A DNA stretch of 64,000 nt. Origin: Escherichia coli (GTDB taxonomy: Bacteria; Pseudomonadota; Gammaproteobacteria; Enterobacterales; Enterobacteriaceae). Under the pieces are notes generated by a model that did no database searches, had not been told where the DNA came from, and saw nothing but the letters and a program-made list of their open reading frames with translations. This document shows positions 31,648 through 44,715 of this stretch, in pieces. Both the position numbers and the translations under genes were made by a program. Each line of letters begins with the position of its first letter. Within the stretch, counting starts at the first letter, position 1. Where the stretch lies: NCBI RefSeq assembly GCF_044324785.1, contig NZ_CP172127.1, one strand, 5' to 3'.

Positions 31648-31663
31648 TGTGATTTTCATCACG
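31648..31663. promoter_or_regulatory. CRP-like binding site in the gapA-msrB divergent region
   Basis: TGTGATTTTCATCACG matches TGTGA-N6-TCACA at 9 of 10 half-site positions. Confidence 0.5.
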
Positions 31664-32509: not shown

Positions 32510-32878
32510 GTGGTTTATCCCCTTTTTGCCGCGATTATAAAGGGGATATCCAACAATAACCCCACGACTCATCTCAATTATCTCGTCACGACCAGGCAAA
32601 GCCCCAGCCCGGTCTCTTGCAGTCGCGTTCACGCCTGAATGACTTCTCCTGAACTTAAGTCTCAGACCTATTTGGCCGGTAATCCCTCTCAAATTTGCTC
32701 ATTTTGCGTTCCGCCTTCCATCAACCTGTAACAGATCCAGCCATTTTCTGCGTAATTGTGATCTCAGTTGTAAAACGCAGATCATTATCTGTGTTTTGCA
32801 GATTTAATGTTGACCTCAAAAATCATGTGGGTAAGTATGATGACCATCTAAGCAAAACAAAACACAGAGGATGACGCA

Positions 32879-33955
32879 ATGAAAGCACTGGCTCGGTTTG
32901 GCAAAGCCTTTGGCGGCTACAAGATGATCGATGTGCCACAACCCATTTGTGGCCCGGAAGATGTAGTGATTGAAATTAAAGCCGCGGCAATCTGCGGCGC
33001 AGACATGAAGCACTACAATGTCGATAGCGGTTCTGATGAGTTTAACTCTATCCGCGGCCATGAGTTCGCAGGTTGTATTACGCAGGTTGGTGAAAAAGTC
33101 AAAGACTGGAAAGTGGGGCAACGCGTCGTGTCGGATAACAGCGGTCACGTCTGCGGCGTTTGTCCGGCCTGTGAACAAGGTGATTTTCTGTGTTGTACAG
33201 AAAAAGTAAACCTTGGTCTGGATAACAATACCTGGGGCGGTGGTTTTTCCAAATATTGTCTGGTTCCTGGCGAAATTCTCAAAATTCATCGTCATGCGTT
33301 GTGGGAAATCCCTGATGGTGTTGATTATGAGGACGCAGCCGTACTTGACCCTATCTGTAATGCCTACAAATCCATCGCGCAGCAATCGAAATTCCTTCCT
33401 GGTCAGGATGTGGTCGTCATCGGCACTGGCCCACTCGGGCTGTTCTCCGTACAAATGGCGCGGATTATGGGGGCGGTAAATATCGTCGTCGTTGGTCTGC
33501 AAGAAGATGTGGCGGTCCGCTTTCCGGTTGCAAAAGAACTGGGTGCGACGGCTGTAGTAAATGGTTCTACCGAAGATGTGGTGGCGCGCTGCCAGCAAAT
33601 TTGTGGCAAAGACAATCTGGGACTGGTGATTGAATGCTCCGGTGCCAATATCGCACTGAAACAAGCCATCGAAATGCTCCGCCCGAACGGGGAAGTGGTA
33701 CGCGTTGGAATGGGCTTCAAACCTCTTGATTTCTCGATTAATGACATTACCGCCTGGAACAAAAGCATCATTGGGCATATGGCCTATGACTCCACCTCAT
33801 GGCGTAACGCTCTCCGGCTATTAGCCAGCGGCGCTATCAAAGTCAAACCGATGATCACGCATCGTATCGGCCTGTCGCAATGGCGCGAAGGGTTTGAAGC
33901 GATGGTCGATAAAACCGCAATCAAAGTGATCATGACTTACGACTTTGATGAATAA
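32879..33955 (+). CDS. ydjL: zinc-dependent MDR-family alcohol/polyol dehydrogenase YdjL
   Basis: 358 aa; catalytic Zn motif GHEFAG and structural Zn Cys cluster CGVCPACEQGDFLCC. Confidence 0.85.
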   Translation: MKALARFGKAFGGYKMIDVPQPICGPEDVVIEIKAAAICGADMKHYNVDSGSDEFNSIRGHEFAGCITQVGEKVKDWKVGQRVVSDNSGHVCGVCPACEQGDFLCCTEKVNLGLDNNTWGGGFSKYCLVPGEILKIHRHALWEIPDGVDYEDAAVLDPICNAYKSIAQQSKFLPGQDVVVIGTGPLGLFSVQMARIMGAVNIVVVGLQEDVAVRFPVAKELGATAVVNGSTEDVVARCQQICGKDNLGLVIECSGANIALKQAIEMLRPNGEVVRVGMGFKPLDFSINDITAWNKSIIGHMAYDSTSWRNALRLLASGAIKVKPMITHRIGLSQWREGFEAMVDKTAIKVIMTYDFDE

Positions 33956-38239: not shown

Positions 38240-39220
38240 ATGAAAAAGATACCTTTAGGCACAACGGATATAACGCTTTCGCGAATGGGGTTGGGGACAT
38301 GGGCCATTGGCGGCGGTCCTGCATGGAATGGCGATCTCGATCGGCAAATATGTATTGATACGATTCTTGAAGCCCATCGTTGCGGCATTAACCTGATTGA
38401 TACTGCGCCAGGATATAACTTTGGCAATAGTGAAGTTATCGTCGGTCAGGCGTTAAAAAAACTGCCCCGTGAACAGGTTGTAGTAGAAACCAAATGCGGC
38501 ATTGTCTGGGAACGAAAAGGGAGTTTATTCAACAAAGTTGGCGATCGGCAGTTGTATAAAAACCTTTCCCCGGAATCTATCCGCGAAGAGGTAGAAGCCA
38601 GCTTGCAACGTCTGGGTATTGATTACATCGATATCTACATGACGCACTGGCAGTCGGTGCCGCCATTTTTTACGCCGATCGCTGAAACTGTCGCAGTGCT
38701 CAATGAGTTAAAGGCCGAAGGGAAAATTCGCGCTATCGGCGCTGCTAACGTCGATGCTGACCATATCCGCGAGTATCTGCAATATGGTGAACTGGATATT
38801 ATTCAGGCGAAATACAGTATCCTCGACCGGGCAATGGAAAGCGAACTGCTGCCGCTATGTCGTGATAATGGCATTGTGGTTCAGGTTTATTCCCCGCTAG
38901 AGCAGGGATTGTTGACCGGTACCATCACTCGTGATTACGTTCCGGGCGGCGCTCGGGCAAATAAAGTCTGGTTCCAGCGTGAAAACATGCTGAAAGTGAT
39001 TGATATGCTTGAACAGTGGCAGCCACTCTGTGCTCGTTATCAGTGCACAATTCCCACTCTGGCACTGGCGTGGATATTAAAACAGAGTGATTTAATCTCC
39101 ATTCTTAGTGGGGCTACTGCACCGGAACAGGTACGCGAAAATGTCGCGGCATTGAATATCAACTTATCGGATGCAGACGCAACATTGATGAGGGAAATGG
39201 CAGAGGCCCTGGAGCGTTAA
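38240..39220 (+). CDS. ydjG: aldo-keto reductase YdjG
   Basis: 326-aa AKR-fold ORF 10 nt after ydjH. Confidence 0.85.
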   Translation: MKKIPLGTTDITLSRMGLGTWAIGGGPAWNGDLDRQICIDTILEAHRCGINLIDTAPGYNFGNSEVIVGQALKKLPREQVVVETKCGIVWERKGSLFNKVGDRQLYKNLSPESIREEVEASLQRLGIDYIDIYMTHWQSVPPFFTPIAETVAVLNELKAEGKIRAIGAANVDADHIREYLQYGELDIIQAKYSILDRAMESELLPLCRDNGIVVQVYSPLEQGLLTGTITRDYVPGGARANKVWFQRENMLKVIDMLEQWQPLCARYQCTIPTLALAWILKQSDLISILSGATAPEQVRENVAALNINLSDADATLMREMAEALER

Positions 39221-39246
39221 ATACTCAACACGATTCACCTCTGTTT

Positions 39247-39274
39247 CTGTGAAAACTGTGATGAAAATCTGTGA
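39247..39274. promoter_or_regulatory. three direct CTGTGA repeats upstream of ydjF (candidate operator)
   Basis: CTGTGA at 39247, 39256 and 39269, with a fourth TGTGAT at 39327; about 85 bp before the ydjF GTG start. Confidence 0.35.
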
Positions 39275-39356
39275 TTCAAACAGGTTATTTTGAAAGTAAA
39301 CATCGGTTATGCGATAATCGCGCTAATGTGATGTAAAAAGATACAGGGGTGTAATC

Positions 39357-40115
39357 GTGGCGGCAAAAGACAGGATTCAGGCAATTAAGCAAATGGTTGC
39401 CAACGATAAAAAGGTGACAGTCTCAAATTTGAGTGGGATTTTTCAAGTAACCGAAGAAACCATTCGCCGCGATCTTGAGAAGCTGGAAGATGAAGGCTTT
39501 TTGACCAGAACCTATGGTGGTGCTGTTTTAAATACAGCGATGTTGACGGAGAATATCCATTTTTATAAGCGCGCTTCATCGTTTTATGAAGAGAAGCAGC
39601 TTATTGCACGCAAGGCACTACCCTTTATCGACAATAAAACCACTATGGCAGCCGATTCCAGTAGTACCGTTATGGAATTGCTCAAATTGTTGCAGGACCG
39701 TAGTGACCTGACGTTGCTAACCAACTCGGCGGAAGCGATTCATGTTCTGGCTCAATCAGAAATTAAAGTCGTTTCAACGGGGGGGGAACTAAACAAAAAT
39801 ACACTTTCCCTGCAAGGAAGAATTACTAAAGAGATCATCAGCCGCTACCATGTCGATATCATGGTAATGAGTTGTAAAGGTCTTGATATTAACAGCGGCG
39901 CGCTGGACTCTAACGAAGCGGAAGCTGAAATCAAAAAGACAATGATCCGTCAGGCGACAGAAGTTGCGTTATTGGTTGATCACTCTAAGTTTGATCGCAA
40001 AGCTTTTGTCCAGTTAGCTGACTTTAGTCATATTAATTACATAATAACTGATAAATCACCGGGTGCAGAGTGGATAGCATTTTGCAAAGACAATAATATC
40101 CAGCTGGTGTGGTAA
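39357..40115 (+). CDS. ydjF: DeoR-family transcriptional regulator YdjF
   Basis: 252 aa; GTG start; N-terminal HTH and C-terminal DeoR sugar-binding domain. Confidence 0.85.
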   Translation: MAAKDRIQAIKQMVANDKKVTVSNLSGIFQVTEETIRRDLEKLEDEGFLTRTYGGAVLNTAMLTENIHFYKRASSFYEEKQLIARKALPFIDNKTTMAADSSSTVMELLKLLQDRSDLTLLTNSAEAIHVLAQSEIKVVSTGGELNKNTLSLQGRITKEIISRYHVDIMVMSCKGLDINSGALDSNEAEAEIKKTMIRQATEVALLVDHSKFDRKAFVQLADFSHINYIITDKSPGAEWIAFCKDNNIQLVW

Positions 40116-40231: not shown

Positions 40232-41510
40232 ATGGAACAATATGATCAAATTGGCGCAAGACTGGACCGCTTGCCTTTGGCCCGGTTTCATTATCGTATA
40301 TTTGGTATTATAAGCTTTAGTCTGTTATTAACGGGTTTTTTGAGTTATTCAGGCAATGTTGTTTTAGCAAAGCTGGTAAGCAATGGATGGTCAAATAATT
40401 TCCTCAATGCCGCCTTTACCTCGGCATTAATGTTTGGTTATTTCATCGGCTCTCTTACCGGTGGGTTCATCGGTGATTATTTTGGGCGGCGCAGGGCTTT
40501 TCGCATAAATCTTCTCATCGTCGGTATTGCGGCAACAGGGGCCGCTTTTGTCCCTGATATGTACTGGCTCATCTTCTTTCGCTTCCTGATGGGCACAGGA
40601 ATGGGGGCGCTGATTATGGTTGGCTATGCTTCGTTTACGGAGTTTATCCCCGCGACGGTGCGTGGAAAATGGTCCGCGCGGCTCTCATTTGTCGGTAACT
40701 GGTCGCCCATGTTGTCTGCGGCGATAGGCGTGGTGGTTATCGCTTTTTTTAGTTGGCGGATAATGTTTCTGCTGGGTGGTATTGGCATACTGTTAGCCTG
40801 GTTTCTCTCAGGTAAATACTTTATTGAGTCGCCTCGATGGTTGGCGGGGAAAGGACAAATCGCAGGTGCAGAAAGCCAACTTCGTGAAGTAGAGCAGCAA
40901 ATTGAAAGAGAGAAGAGTGTTCGTTTACCCCCGCTTACTTTGAATCAGAGCAACAGCAAGGCTAACATAATCAATGGTACTTTCTGGCTGCTGTTTAAAG
41001 GGAAAATGTTACGACGTACATTAGTCGCGATTACTGTTTTAATTGCAATGAACATTTCACTTTATACCATCACCGTATGGATACCGACCATATTTGTTAA
41101 CTCCGGCATTGATGTCGATAAATCAATATTAATGACTGCTGTTATTATGATTGGTGCTCCGGTAGGAATATTTATTGCGGCATTAATTATTGATCATTTT
41201 CCTCGTCGATTATTTGGCTCCGCCTTACTTATTATTATTGCCGTGTTAGGCTATATCTATTCAATTCAGACTACAGAGTGGGCGATTTTAATCTATGGCC
41301 TGGTGATGATCTTCTTTTTATACATGTATGTTTGCTTCGCGTCGGCGGTTTATATCCCGGAGCTTTGGCCAACGCATTTACGCCTGCGCGGTTCAGGTTT
41401 CGTTAATGCCGTCGGACGGATCGTCGCGGTCTTCACGCCTTATGGCGTTGCGGCACTATTAACGCATTATGGGTCAATCACGGTGTTTATAGTGCTTGGC
41501 GTGATGTTAG

Positions 41511-41533
<23 letters not shown>
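40232..41533 (+). pseudogene. ydjE: MFS transporter ydjE, 3'-truncated by IS5 insertion
   Basis: Reading frame enters IS5 at codon 427 and ends after 7 IS-encoded residues (GKVRTSP); the displaced final 26 codons continue in frame at 42706..42789. Confidence 0.75.
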
Positions 41534-42705
<1,172 letters not shown>

Positions 42706-43533: not shown

Positions 43534-44550
43534 TTAATCATCCGGCGTCAGTTCGCCGCGCAGGTTTTGGCTCATGGCCTTGCGAATGGTTTCAGTATCC
43601 AGTTCCTGGCTAAGCAGGTAATGCAGTTTGGTTAGCGTGGCTTCTACAGTCATATCTGCACCGCCAATAACGCCGGCATGGGCGAGGGCGTTACCAGTGG
43701 CATACCCCCCCATGTTCACTTTACCGGACATACATTGTGTCAGGTTGACCACCACAATACCGCGATCGCTGGCTTCTTGTAATTCCTGCAGGAAGGCTTT
43801 GTTTTGTGGCGCATTACCCACGCCATATGAGCGCAGAATCAATGCTTTCACCGGTTGGCGCAGAAAATTGCGCACGACGTCAGCAGAAATCCCCGGATAA
43901 ATCGTCACTACGCCAATTGGTTGTGGCGTGATTGGATGAACGATCAATTCCCCTTCACCGTGCGGGGCGGGTGGCGTATTCAAACGACGAATATGGATAC
44001 CTGCTTCCAGTAACGGAGGAAGGTTTGGAGAGGCAAACGCATCAAAACCATCGGCATGGGCTTTGGTAGTGCGGTTGCCGCGATACAATCGGTTATTGAA
44101 AAAGAGCGTTACTTCGTTGATCGGATAATTCGCCGCAACGTACAACGCATTCAGCAGATTAATTTGTCCGTCAGAGCGTAACTCAGCCAGCGGGATTTGT
44201 GACCCTGTCACAATGACCGGTTTACCGAGATTCTCGAGCATGAACGACAGTGCAGAGGCGGTATACGCCATCGTGTCGGTGCCGTGCAGAATGACAAAAC
44301 CATCATAGTCGTCATAGTGCGCTTTAATATCTTCAGCAATATGCTGCCAGTCTTCTGGCGTCATATCAGAAGAATCCATCAGCGGCGTATATTCATGAAT
44401 GGTGAAATCTGGCATCTCCGGGCGATGGAATTCCGGCATCAGCGCCAGTTGGCGTTGTAGATGACCTGACACCGGAATATAACCCTGCTCGGAACGCTGC
44501 ATCCCGATGGTCCCGCCCGTGTAGGCGACGTAAATTGATTTCTTTTGCAT
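43534..44550 (-). CDS. ansA: cytoplasmic L-asparaginase I
   Basis: 338 aa from ATG 44550; asparaginase motif VAYTGGTIGM; 10-nt gap to pncA. Confidence 0.9.
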   Translation of the reverse strand: MQKKSIYVAYTGGTIGMQRSEQGYIPVSGHLQRQLALMPEFHRPEMPDFTIHEYTPLMDSSDMTPEDWQHIAEDIKAHYDDYDGFVILHGTDTMAYTASALSFMLENLGKPVIVTGSQIPLAELRSDGQINLLNALYVAANYPINEVTLFFNNRLYRGNRTTKAHADGFDAFASPNLPPLLEAGIHIRRLNTPPAPHGEGELIVHPITPQPIGVVTIYPGISADVVRNFLRQPVKALILRSYGVGNAPQNKAFLQELQEASDRGIVVVNLTQCMSGKVNMGGYATGNALAHAGVIGGADMTVEATLTKLHYLLSQELDTETIRKAMSQNLRGELTPDD

Positions 44551-44715
44551 GATATTGATATGAATGATATCGAAAGAGCAAAAGTATATACGTGAGGCAG
44601 GGGGAGCGCACCTGATACTATGCGGATAAGGAAATATGGGGCGAGACAGCGGGAAGAGGATTCGTAGAGGTAAAAATAATGTGGCCGACGATCTGTCGGC
44701 CAATCAGTACAAGAC

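What the first reader, a model, noticed from the sequence alone, without database searches (positions are those of the whole stretch)
39241..39332. Iterated CTGTGA motifs upstream of the DeoR regulator gene ydjF
Three direct CTGTGA repeats at 39247, 39256 and 39269 and a fourth TGTGAT at 39327 occur within 110 bp before the ydjF GTG start. DeoR-family repressors often bind iterated direct repeats, and TGTGA is also a CRP half-site. The region could be an autoregulatory operator, a catabolite-control element, or both.
Basis: seen in the sequence. Interest (0 to 1): 0.3.

Follow-up and report, generated by a model that had tools for sequence, protein, structure and literature searches.

The report
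Composite control region upstream of ydjF
The repeated CTGTGA words before the E. coli regulator gene ydjF are real but are not one repeated element: one lies in a conserved candidate YdjF binding site, one is an E. coli-only addition forming a weak, already published CRP site, and one borders a conserved RNA segment predicted to hide the ydjF ribosome-binding site in read-through operon transcripts.

Summary
CTGTGA occurs at 39247, 39256 and 39269, and TGTGAT at 39327, in the 136-bp ydjG-ydjF spacer.

The four copies are not equivalent.
- **Copy 3** sits in a 17-bp pseudo-palindrome, AATCTGTGATTCAAACA (39266-39282). It is conserved in 29 orthologous loci and recurs at the same distance (7 bp) from the -35 box of the ydjL operon promoter. 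A motif model built without the window's own sites ranks these two sites first and second of 127,968 window positions. This is the best candidate YdjF operator.
- **Copy 2** is specific to Escherichia coli. With copy 3 it forms TGTGATGAAAATCTGT, the CRP box published from genomic SELEX (Shimada 2011). It scores a modest 8.3 bits and is absent in other genera.
- **Copy 1** lies at the inner end of a conserved anti-Shine-Dalgarno segment (39229-39249). This segment pairs with the ydjF SD and GTG start (39338-39359) and shows compensatory changes. The published sigma-70 promoter (TTGAAA-17-GATAAT) lies inside the loop. Only read-through mRNA from ydjG should therefore have a masked ribosome-binding site.
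- **Copy 4** is Escherichia-only and shows no sign of function.

The promoter and the CRP binding are already known. The operator and the RNA helix are new predictions of known kinds. Interest is modest.

The parts
39247..39252 (+). CTGTGA copy 1. It is conserved as CTGTGT in other genera. CTG (39247-39249) is the last part of the 5' arm of the RNA helix. It matches the operator model poorly (6 bits or less).
39256..39261 (+). CTGTGA copy 2. It is specific to E. coli. It forms the left half-site of the published CRP box and is part of a weak second operator-like copy (39253-39269; 10.3 bits with the model built without the window's sites, 9.2 bits with the full model).
39269..39274 (+). CTGTGA copy 3. 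It is the core of the conserved operator's left half-site and also overlaps the degenerate right half of the CRP box.
39327..39332 (+). TGTGAT copy 4. It lies about +2 to +7 from the predicted transcription start and occurs only in Escherichia. It scores low for both CRP (2.2 bits) and the operator model (3.6 bits). There is no evidence of function.
39266..39282 (.). Candidate YdjF operator AATCTGTGATTCAAACA, with a 7-3-7 pseudo-palindromic core ATCTGTG-ATT-CAAACAG at 39267-39283. It ends 7 bp before the -35 box and its centre is about -52.
   Evidence: De novo motif. Top-scoring position of 127,968 with a model built without the window's sites (24.3 bits). Conserved in the 29 orthologous loci (22 from the genome scan, 7 from the protein look-ups).
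39257..39272 (.). CRP box TGTGATGAAAATCTGT, the reverse complement of ACAGATTTTCATCACA in Shimada 2011 Table S3. Its centre at 39264.5 is about -60.5 to -61.5 from the predicted start.
39290..39318 (+). Sigma-70 promoter of ydjF: -35 TTGAAA (39290-39295), 17-bp spacer with an extended -10 TG (39310-39311), and -10 GATAAT (39313-39318). The start is predicted at about 39325-39326.
   Evidence: The same hexamers are listed as a constitutive RpoD promoter of ydjF in Shimada 2014. Conserved.
39229..39249 (+). 5' arm of a long-range RNA helix (anti-SD, anti-start): CACGATTCACCTCTGTTTCTG. The conserved core is ACCTCTGTTTC (39237-39247).
39338..39359 (+). 3' arm of the helix, AAGATACAGGGGTGTAATCGTG. 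It contains the ydjF Shine-Dalgarno AGGGG (39345-39349) and the GTG start (39357-39359).
39357..40115 (+). ydjF, a DeoR/GlpR-family regulator (HTH_DeoR plus DeoRC domains, 252 aa).
32786..32802 (.). Matching operator TATCTGTGTTTTGCAGA at the ydjL operon promoter. It also ends 7 bp before its -35 box (TTGACC, 32810-32815).
   Evidence: 18.8 bits, second of 127,968
32767..32783 (-). Weaker inverted partner site GATCTGCGTTTTACAAC at the ydjL promoter, with its centre 19 bp upstream of the main site.
   Evidence: 11.4 bits, rank 11

Best explanation
The ydjG-ydjF spacer is a composite control region for the regulator gene ydjF. The CTGTGA copies belong to three different elements.

(A) Operator. 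A 17-bp pseudo-palindrome (39266-39282, containing copy 3) is the operator of YdjF itself. The same motif sits at the same place, ending 7 bp before the -35 box, at the ydjL promoter that drives ydjLKJIHG. YdjF, probably as a dimer or dimer of dimers, would therefore control both its own promoter and the catabolic operon. By family precedent it most likely acts as a repressor released by a sugar-phosphate made by the pathway. The sign of regulation is inferred, not shown.

(B) CRP site. In E. coli only, substitutions just upstream created copy 2. With copy 3 it gives a one-good-half-site CRP box centred about -61 (a class-I position). This accounts for the published in-vitro cAMP-CRP binding and adds catabolite input. 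It overlaps the operator by 7 bp.

(C) RNA helix. The conserved block carrying copy 1 is mainly an RNA element. ACCUCUGUUUC pairs with the ydjF Shine-Dalgarno region, and in Escherichia the pairing extends to the GUG start. The ydjF promoter lies inside the roughly 90-nt loop and no terminator follows ydjG. Transcripts reading through from the operon therefore carry both arms and have a masked ribosome-binding site. Transcripts started at the ydjF promoter lack the 5' arm and can be translated. This would uncouple YdjF synthesis from operon induction.

Copy 4 has no detectable role.
For: Promoter. TTGAAA-17-GATAAT with an extended -10 TG was the only sigma-70 match in the scanned 1,200-base region 38700-39900. 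It is published as an RNAP-only SELEX promoter and is conserved across genera.

Operator.
- An unbiased search seeded from every 17-mer, over 19 ydjF and ydjL upstream regions from 10 divergent lineages (YdjF identity down to 62%), returns AATCTGTGTTTCAGACA. Its information content is 15.5 bits against 10.1-10.8 in 10 shuffles.
- Enterobacillus has the perfect palindrome AAATCTGTGTTTCACAGATTT at its ydjL promoter.
- A model built without the window's sites ranks 39266-39282 (24.3 bits) and 32786-32802 (18.8 bits) first and second of 127,968 window positions. The next best scores 13.2.
- Both sites end 7 bp before their -35 boxes.
- The whole ydjL...ydjG-ydjF cluster is syntenic in all of these lineages.
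- The YdjF recognition helix TEETIRRDLEKLE is invariant.

CRP. The published SELEX box equals 39257-39272. It scores 8.3 bits, rank 34 in the window. A held-out gapA site scored 17.2 bits as a positive control. The box is absent in orthologs.

RNA helix.
- In most of the 30 sequences tested, the best duplex between the ydjF SD/start region and the upstream spacer falls on the homologous block. Energies are -16 to -29 kcal/mol with z from -2.8 to -6.9 in 27 sequences; the other 3 (L037, L039, L040) do not differ from shuffles.
- RNAalifold predicts the 12-bp helix independently.
- The E. coli MFE structure contains it (-45 kcal/mol, z -4.1).
- 75.5% of cells are paired, against 53% or less when the partner is slid. 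The covariation score is 0.222 against 0.167 in shuffles (0 of 500 reach it). Compensatory pairs include CG6/UA5/AU1 and UA12/UG5/CG3.
- Four different sequence versions keep complementarity: CCTCTGTTT/AAACAGAGG, CCTCC/GGAGG, CCCCATT/AATGGGG and GCCTTTTTT/AAAACAAGGGT.
- The predicted unpaired probability of the SD is 0.000 in read-through RNA and 0.44-0.67 in RNA started at the ydjF promoter.
- No terminator-like site was found.
Against: - No protein-binding or expression data for YdjF exist in the searched literature. It is listed as uncharacterized, and nothing further turned up.
- The orthologous promoters are related by descent, so motif statistics overstate independence.
- A model made from enterobacterial ydjL sites alone did not pick the ydjF site. 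The link appeared only after adding divergent lineages.
- A site centred at -52 is more typical of an activator than a repressor, and the ydjF promoter is strong without any factor.
- The transcription start is predicted, not measured.
- The helix closes a loop of about 90 nt and could be outcompeted during transcription.
- The helix is weak or absent in Enterobacillus and in two Firmicute loci.
- The outer part of the helix does not hold in a fixed alignment register.
- The CRP box is weak. Boxes of equal or better score occur about once per 1.9 kb. The SELEX peak has roughly 100-300 bp resolution, so the exact CRP contact is not proven.
Confidence: 0.6

Rival explanations
1. All four CTGTGA/TGTGAT copies are iterated direct-repeat binding units for YdjF and form one autoregulatory operator array.
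For: Copy 3 lies in the conserved motif. Copy 2 lies in a weak operator-like copy (9-10 bits) offset by 13 bp. In some lineages the ydjL promoter carries two direct copies about 20-21 bp apart (Agarivorans, Caproiciproducens, L040). Tandem sites are therefore used by this regulator family at this cluster.
Against: Copies 2 and 4 are absent outside Escherichia. Copy 1 scores 6 bits or less, and copy 4 scores 3.6 bits. The conserved unit is a 17-bp dyad, not the hexamer. The spacings of 9, 13 and 58 bp fit no regular array.
Confidence: 0.12
2. The cluster is essentially a catabolite-control element. CRP-cAMP is the main factor acting here, and the conserved blocks are CRP half-sites.
For: A published cAMP-dependent SELEX peak maps to this spacer, with its box at 39257-39272. 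The box centre is about -61 from the predicted start. TGTGA is the CRP half-site.
Against: Only one 16-mer reaches a moderate score (8.3 bits). Those starting at 39248, 39270 and 39327 score 2.6 bits or less. No ortholog outside E. coli has a box at this position, yet the flanking blocks are nearly invariant. Conservation therefore cannot be due to CRP. The ydjL promoter shares the conserved motif but has no CRP-like box and was not a SELEX target.
Confidence: 0.15
3. The conserved 17-bp motif is bound by a different regulator, not YdjF. Alternatively it is a promoter UP-like element kept for RNA polymerase alpha-subunit contact.
For: The motif lies immediately upstream of the -35 box at both promoters, where UP elements and many global regulators act. 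It is A/T-rich on its right side. No binding data tie it to YdjF.
Against: The motif travels with the ydjF cluster into Vibrio-like (Agarivorans) and Firmicute genomes. There it sits at varied positions, including over the -35/-10 region of ydjF promoters. That fits a cluster-encoded factor, not a host global factor or an UP element. Its dyad symmetry, perfect in Enterobacillus, indicates a dimeric protein site.
Confidence: 0.13
4. Block A (ACCTCTGTTTCTGTG) is conserved as a DNA site, for example an upstream YdjF half-operator two helical turns from the main one. Its complementarity to the SD is incidental, since anti-SD-like CCUC motifs pair with any SD.
For: TCTGTG in block A lies 21-22 bp upstream of TCTGTG in the main operator in all enterics. 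In Yokenella and Intestinirhabdus this region scores 8-12 bits on the operator model.
Against: In most species block A scores 5 bits or less on the operator model. Complementarity extends well beyond CCUC, to 12-21 bp, and includes the start codon in Escherichia. It is maintained by compensatory changes in lineages where both arms have different sequences.
Confidence: 0.15

Closest known systems
Operators of DeoR/GlpR-family sugar-phosphate repressors (E. coli DeoR 16-bp palindrome; GlpR tandem operators)
   Same: An adjacent gene encodes an HTH_DeoR + DeoRC protein. The site is a dyad-symmetric element about 17 bp long. Sites occur at both the regulator's own promoter and the catabolic operon promoter. 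Some lineages have paired sites about two helical turns apart.
   Different: The sequence (ATCTGTG-N3-CACAGAT) differs from the DeoR and GlpR operators as I recall them. The main site lies upstream of the -35 box (centre about -52) rather than over the core promoter. Binding, effector and sign of regulation are untested.
Class I CRP-dependent promoters (lac P1 type, CRP centred at -61.5)
   Same: A TGTGA-N6-TCxxx box centred about -61 from the predicted start. cAMP-dependent CRP binding to this spacer in genomic SELEX (Shimada 2011, PMC3105977).
   Different: The right half-site is TCTGT, matching 2 of 5 bases. The score is at the low end of SELEX boxes. The box is not conserved outside E. coli. 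The promoter is already near consensus and was scored as constitutive. No in-vivo CRP dependence is known.
Fold-back inhibition of IS10 and IS50 transposase translation in read-through transcripts (recalled from Davis, Simons & Kleckner 1985 and Krebs & Reznikoff 1986; not re-read here)
   Same: A sequence upstream of the gene's own promoter is complementary to the ribosome-binding site. Only transcripts coming from outside carry both arms and are translationally silent. The native transcript starts inside the loop.
   Different: Here the protected gene is a chromosomal regulator at the 3' end of the operon it presumably controls, not a transposase. The loop is about 90 nt. The effect on translation is predicted only.
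Constitutive sigma-70 promoters mapped by RNAP genomic SELEX (Shimada 2014, PMC3946193)
   Same: The identical hexamers TTGAAA-17-GATAAT are listed there for ydjF.
   Different: Nothing differs. This part is already known.

Membership tests
CRP (cAMP receptor protein) binding site | Match to the 16-bp TGTGA-N6-TCACA consensus | tested here: inconclusive
   A model built from 149 SELEX boxes gives 8.3 bits for 39257-39272. That is rank 34 of about 64,000 positions and the 25th percentile of the training boxes. The left half is perfect and the right half matches 2 of 5 bases.
CRP (cAMP receptor protein) binding site | [quoted passage not shown] | not testable with these tools
   Published genomic SELEX-chip peak between ydjG and ydjF, with this box named. 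No footprint, and no in-vivo data found.
CRP (cAMP receptor protein) binding site | Helical-phase position for activation (-41.5, -61.5, -71.5 and so on) | tested here: inconclusive
   The centre at 39264.5 is -60.5 or -61.5 from a start predicted at 39325 or 39326. The start is not measured.
CRP (cAMP receptor protein) binding site | Conservation of the site in orthologous promoters | tested here: not met
   The best box at the same place scores 5.0 bits in E. whittamii and 2.5 in Escherichia sp. E1V33, and is absent in other genera.
DeoR/GlpR-family operator (autoregulatory) | Cognate regulator with HTH_DeoR and DeoRC domains encoded next to the site | tested here: met
   ydjF is annotated as DeoR/GlpR family. 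PF08220 and PF00455 hit the orthologs.
DeoR/GlpR-family operator (autoregulatory) | The same motif upstream of the regulator gene and of the operon it accompanies, co-inherited with the regulator | tested here: met
   The de novo motif is found in both promoter sets across 10 lineages. The two sites are first and second in the window with a model built without them.
DeoR/GlpR-family operator (autoregulatory) | Dyad or repeated architecture compatible with an oligomeric HTH protein | tested here: met
   A 7-3-7 pseudo-palindrome, perfect (9-3-9) in Enterobacillus. Paired sites lie 19-21 bp apart at ydjL promoters.
   Only copy 3 is inside the conserved motif. Copies 2 and 4 are lineage-specific.
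DeoR/GlpR-family operator (autoregulatory) | Binding by YdjF and effector-dependent release | not testable with these tools
   No data found. YdjF is listed as uncharacterized.
RBS-sequestering fold-back (anti-SD) element | Upstream segment complementary to the SD and start codon, more stable than chance | tested here: met
   -27.3 kcal/mol, z -6.3 in the window. Similar values in most orthologs. MFE z -4.1.
RBS-sequestering fold-back (anti-SD) element | Pairing maintained by compensatory change | tested here: met
   9 of 19 pairs show double changes. Covariation is 0.222 against 0.167 in shuffles (0 of 500 reach it). 75.5% of cells are paired, against 53% or less when slid. Caveats: the sequences are related, and the outer helix is not in a fixed register.
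RBS-sequestering fold-back (anti-SD) element | The gene's own promoter lies between the two arms, and no terminator separates it from the upstream gene | tested here: met
   The promoter at 39290-39318 lies between the arms at 39229-39249 and 39338-39359. No terminator-like sites were found. The start is predicted only.
RBS-sequestering fold-back (anti-SD) element | Reduced translation of read-through transcripts | not testable with these tools
   Only predicted accessibility is available: SD unpaired probability 0.000 against 0.44-0.67.

The most novel reading that the evidence does not exclude
The conserved long-range anti-SD helix makes translation of the regulator YdjF depend on where its mRNA started. 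Read-through from the induced ydjLKJIHG operon would be translationally silent, and only RNA started at the ydjF promoter would be translated. This would be a chromosomal counterpart of IS10/IS50 fold-back inhibition, used to insulate a repressor gene placed at the 3' end of its own target operon from feedback. It is conserved from E. coli to Agarivorans and to at least one Gram-positive-like lineage.
Probability: 0.45. Interest if true: 0.55.

Novelty: new member of a known kind. Interest (0 to 1): 0.38.

Why it matters
YdjF is one of the few E. coli transcription factors still listed as uncharacterized. The ydjLKJIHG operon is silent in culture but switched on in the mouse gut (PMC6561318), and its regulation is unknown.

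A concrete 17-bp operator at both promoters gives a direct handle for EMSA, ChIP and reporter work, and for finding the inducer. The predicted RBS-masking helix would explain how a regulator gene with no terminator in front of it avoids being over-made whenever its operon is induced. That design principle could be looked for at other regulator genes placed at operon ends.

The E. coli-specific CRP box is a small example of recent gain of catabolite input by a few substitutions next to an older operator.

Tried and rejected
- **ydjL-only model.** A model made only from enterobacterial ydjL promoter 17-, 21-, 41- and 51-mers did not recover the ydjF site; other window positions scored higher. 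This looked like evidence against a shared motif. Divergent lineages (Agarivorans, Pectobacterium sp., Enterobacillus, Firmicute-like loci) later supplied intermediate forms.
- **Consensus matching by mismatches.** Matching to ATCTGTGNNNCACAGAT at 4 mismatches or fewer is too noisy. It picks conserved coding sequences such as the ICGAD zinc-dehydrogenase motif of ydjL and ydjJ.
- **CRP as the cause of conservation.** Rejected.
- **By-eye comparisons.** I compared the region with Cra (TGAATC half-site on the minus strand of the operator), GalR and FNR (CAGAT-N4-ATCTG at ydjL). None was tested with models, and none explains co-inheritance with ydjF.
- **Rfam.** No family matches 38800-39800 at E <= 1.
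- **Terminator.** None lies between ydjG and ydjF.
- **Literature.** Searches for ydjF, the ydj genes and b1770 found no binding or regulation study. A search for a citable open-access description of IS10 fold-back inhibition failed, so that analogy rests on memory.
- **Outer helix.** The 7-bp outer helix seen in E. coli does not hold as fixed alignment columns in other genera. Per-sequence duplex predictions suggest lineage-specific extensions instead.

Full report
**Context.** The window carries the E. coli ydjLKJIHG-ydjF-ydjE region on the + strand. A 99.8% match is annotated ydjG (aldo-keto reductase) followed by ydjF (DeoR/GlpR-family regulator). ydjG ends at 39220 and ydjF starts with GTG at 39357. 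The spacer is 100% identical in many complete E. coli genomes and nearly invariant across the species. The cluster is present in 4329 of 5426 complete genomes.

**Observation.** CTGTGA is at 39247, 39256 and 39269, and TGTGAT at 39327, as reported. The hexamer is not enriched in the window (18 copies against 24.9 expected). A triple of some hexamer within 28 bp is found twice in the window, against about 0.5 expected under a Markov model. The cluster is real but not compelling on its own.

**What was already known.**
- Shimada et al. 2014 list TTGAAA-17-GATAAT between ydjG and ydjF as a constitutive RpoD promoter. The scan here finds the same site at 39290-39318, with an extended -10 TG.
- Shimada et al. 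2011 list ydjF among new cAMP-CRP SELEX targets. Their Table S3 gives the box ACAGATTTTCATCACA at 1.85297 Mb. Its reverse complement is TGTGATGAAAATCTGT at 39257-39272, which spans copy 2 and the start of copy 3.
- YdjF itself is listed as an uncharacterized DeoR-family factor.
- The ydjL promoter is reported to be off in culture and on in the mouse gut, with unknown regulation.

**CRP assessment.** I built a symmetric model from 149 SELEX boxes in that table, leaving out the gapA box.
- The gapA box in the window, used as a positive control, scores 17.2 bits.
- The ydjF box scores 8.3 bits. That is rank 34 of about 64,000 positions and the 25th percentile of the training boxes.
- The other TGTGA-starting 16-mers score 2.6 bits or less.
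- In 22 orthologous loci the same position scores 5.0 bits (E. whittamii), 2.5 bits (Escherichia sp.) or nothing.

The CRP box is therefore a weak, E. coli-specific site. Its centre (39264.5) would be about -61 from a start at 39325-39326, a class-I position. The start is predicted, not measured.

**Phylogenetic footprint.** A genome scan with YdjF gave 22 orthologous loci in Escherichia, Citrobacter, Klebsiella, Raoultella, Budvicia, Yokenella, Intestinirhabdus, Symbiopectobacterium and Serratia. Seven more distant loci came from protein-based look-ups: Agarivorans, Pectobacterium sp., Enterobacillus, two unnamed metagenome lineages, Caproiciproducens, and one further lineage at 62% identity. 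All keep the order ydjL...ydjG-ydjF.

Alignment of the spacer shows these conserved features:
- block A, ACCTCTGTTTCTGTG (39237-39251);
- block B, AAATCTGTGATTCAnACAnGTT (39266-39286);
- the -35 and -10 boxes;
- the SD region.

The stretch between A and B (39253-39265) is variable. Copy 2 lies there and exists only in E. coli. Copy 4 exists only in Escherichia.

**Block B is a candidate YdjF operator.**
- The ydjL promoter has a strongly conserved block ending in ATCTGTGTTTTAAAGAT (E. coli: ATCTGTGTTTTGCAGAT). Its end lies 7 bp before the -35 box TTGACC, exactly as block B ends 7 bp before TTGAAA.
- Distant lineages provide intermediates. The ydjL site of locus L036 (AAATCTGTTATTCGGACAT) is almost the enterobacterial ydjF site. 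Enterobacillus has a perfect palindrome, AAATCTGTGTTTCACAGATTT.
- A search seeded from every 17-mer over 19 upstream regions of 10 lineages converges on AATCTGTGTTTCAGACA. Its information content is 15.5 bits, against 10.1-10.8 in shuffles.
- Rebuilt without the two window sites, the model ranks 39266-39282 (24.3 bits) and 32786-32802 (18.8 bits) first and second of 127,968 window positions. The next best scores 13.2.
- The YdjF recognition helix is invariant across these orthologs. Much of that helix is a family-wide signature, so this is weak support.
- Copy 2 lies in a weak copy of the motif offset by 13 bp (9-10 bits). Copy 1 scores 6 bits or less.

That YdjF is the binding protein, and that it represses, are inferences from co-inheritance and family precedent. 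The position at -52 would also suit an activator.

**Block A is mainly an RNA element.**
- ACCTCTGTTTC is the reverse complement of the SD region, GAAACAGAGGT in most genera and ATACAGGGGTG in E. coli with G-U pairs.
- Without any alignment, the best duplex between the 25 nt around the ydjF start and the upstream spacer falls on the homologous block in most of the 30 sequences tested. Energies are -16 to -29 kcal/mol with z from -2.8 to -6.9 in 27 of them. Enterobacillus and two Firmicute loci do not differ from shuffles.
- In E. coli the helix runs 39229-39249 with 39338-39359 and includes the GTG start.
- RNAalifold predicts the 12-bp core independently.
- The single-sequence MFE structure contains it (-45 kcal/mol, z -4.1).
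- On a 20-sequence alignment, 75.5% of cells pair, against 53% or less with slid partners. Nine pairs carry double changes, and no shuffle reaches the covariation score.
- Lineages with different arm sequences keep complementarity: CCTCC/GGAGG, CCCCATT/AATGGGG and GCCTTTTTT/AAAACAAGGGT.
- The ydjF promoter lies in the loop and no terminator follows ydjG. Read-through RNA should therefore have a masked SD (unpaired probability 0.000). RNA started at the ydjF promoter lacks the 5' arm (0.44-0.67).
- No Rfam family matches.

From memory, the closest described mechanism is fold-back inhibition of IS10 and IS50 transposase in read-through transcripts.

**Synthesis.** The four copies are not one iterated element.
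- Copy 3 is the core of a conserved dyad operator.
- Copy 2 is a recent E. coli addition that creates the published CRP box and a weak second operator-like copy.
- Copy 1 marks the junction of the anti-SD arm.
- Copy 4 has no support for any role.

Shown here are the coordinates, the conservation pattern, the motif statistics, the RNA complementarity and covariation, and agreement with the published SELEX data. Inferred are YdjF as the binding protein, repression, the transcription start, an in-vivo role for CRP and the translational effect of the helix.

**Novelty and score.** The promoter and CRP binding are published. The operator and the fold-back helix appear undescribed in the searchable literature, but both belong to well-known kinds of element. 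The result makes an uncharacterized regulator directly testable, and it is of moderate interest to specialists.

Noticed in passing
window 41543-42559 (+), with ydjE at 40232-41533: A 338-aa DDE transposase ORF (PF01609 + PF05598; from memory, IS5-like by its domains and 338-aa size) directly follows a ydjE shortened to 433 aa, against 452 aa in the reference strain. This looks like an insertion sequence in the 3' end of ydjE in this strain.
   Followed up: partly
window 44550-44570: This is the only other hexamer triple in the window: TGATAT three times within 21 bp on one strand. I did not examine it.
   Followed up: no
window 32755-32783 (ydjL promoter): A sharply bounded conserved element, TTTGTGATCTnAGTTGTGAAATGCAGATCA, lies upstream of the main ydjL operator. 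It has TGTG motifs 12 and 21 bp apart and two conserved GATC (Dam) sites. The TTTGTGATC part scores poorly for both CRP and the operator model and is unexplained.
   Followed up: partly
window 33185-33201 (inside ydjL): TTTCTGTGTTGTACAGA scores 12.6 bits on the operator model. Its 17-mer core, TTCTGTGTTGTACAGAA, is identical in Agarivorans, Pectobacterium sp. and locus L036 despite lying in coding sequence (Leu-Cys-Cys-Thr-Glu). It could be codon constraint or an internal auxiliary operator.
   Followed up: partly
loci L039, L040, L038 and L035: The complete ydjL-(rpe)-ydjK-ydjJ-ydjI-ydjH-ydjG-ydjF cluster, with YdjF 62-76% identical, occurs in Firmicute-like genomes (Caproiciproducens and others) and in some Proteobacteria, with an added ribulose-phosphate 3-epimerase gene. 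This suggests horizontal spread of the whole regulated cluster.
   Followed up: partly
window 39253-39282; L002 8897-8926: In Escherichia the variable segment resembles a 13-bp-offset partial copy of the operator's left part. E. whittamii has AATCTATGATTTA next to AATCTGTGATTCA (11 of 13 identical). The A-to-B block distance does not change, so this is not a simple duplication-insertion.
   Followed up: partly
window 31648-31663: The known gapA/msrB CRP box (TGTGATTTTCATCACG) is the top CRP-model hit in the window at 17.2 bits, although it was held out of the model. This confirms that the model works.
   Followed up: yes
E. coli genome collection: The ydj spacer and its flanks are missing from about 20% of complete E. 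coli genomes (present in 4329 of 5426). One hit lies on a plasmid record.
   Followed up: no
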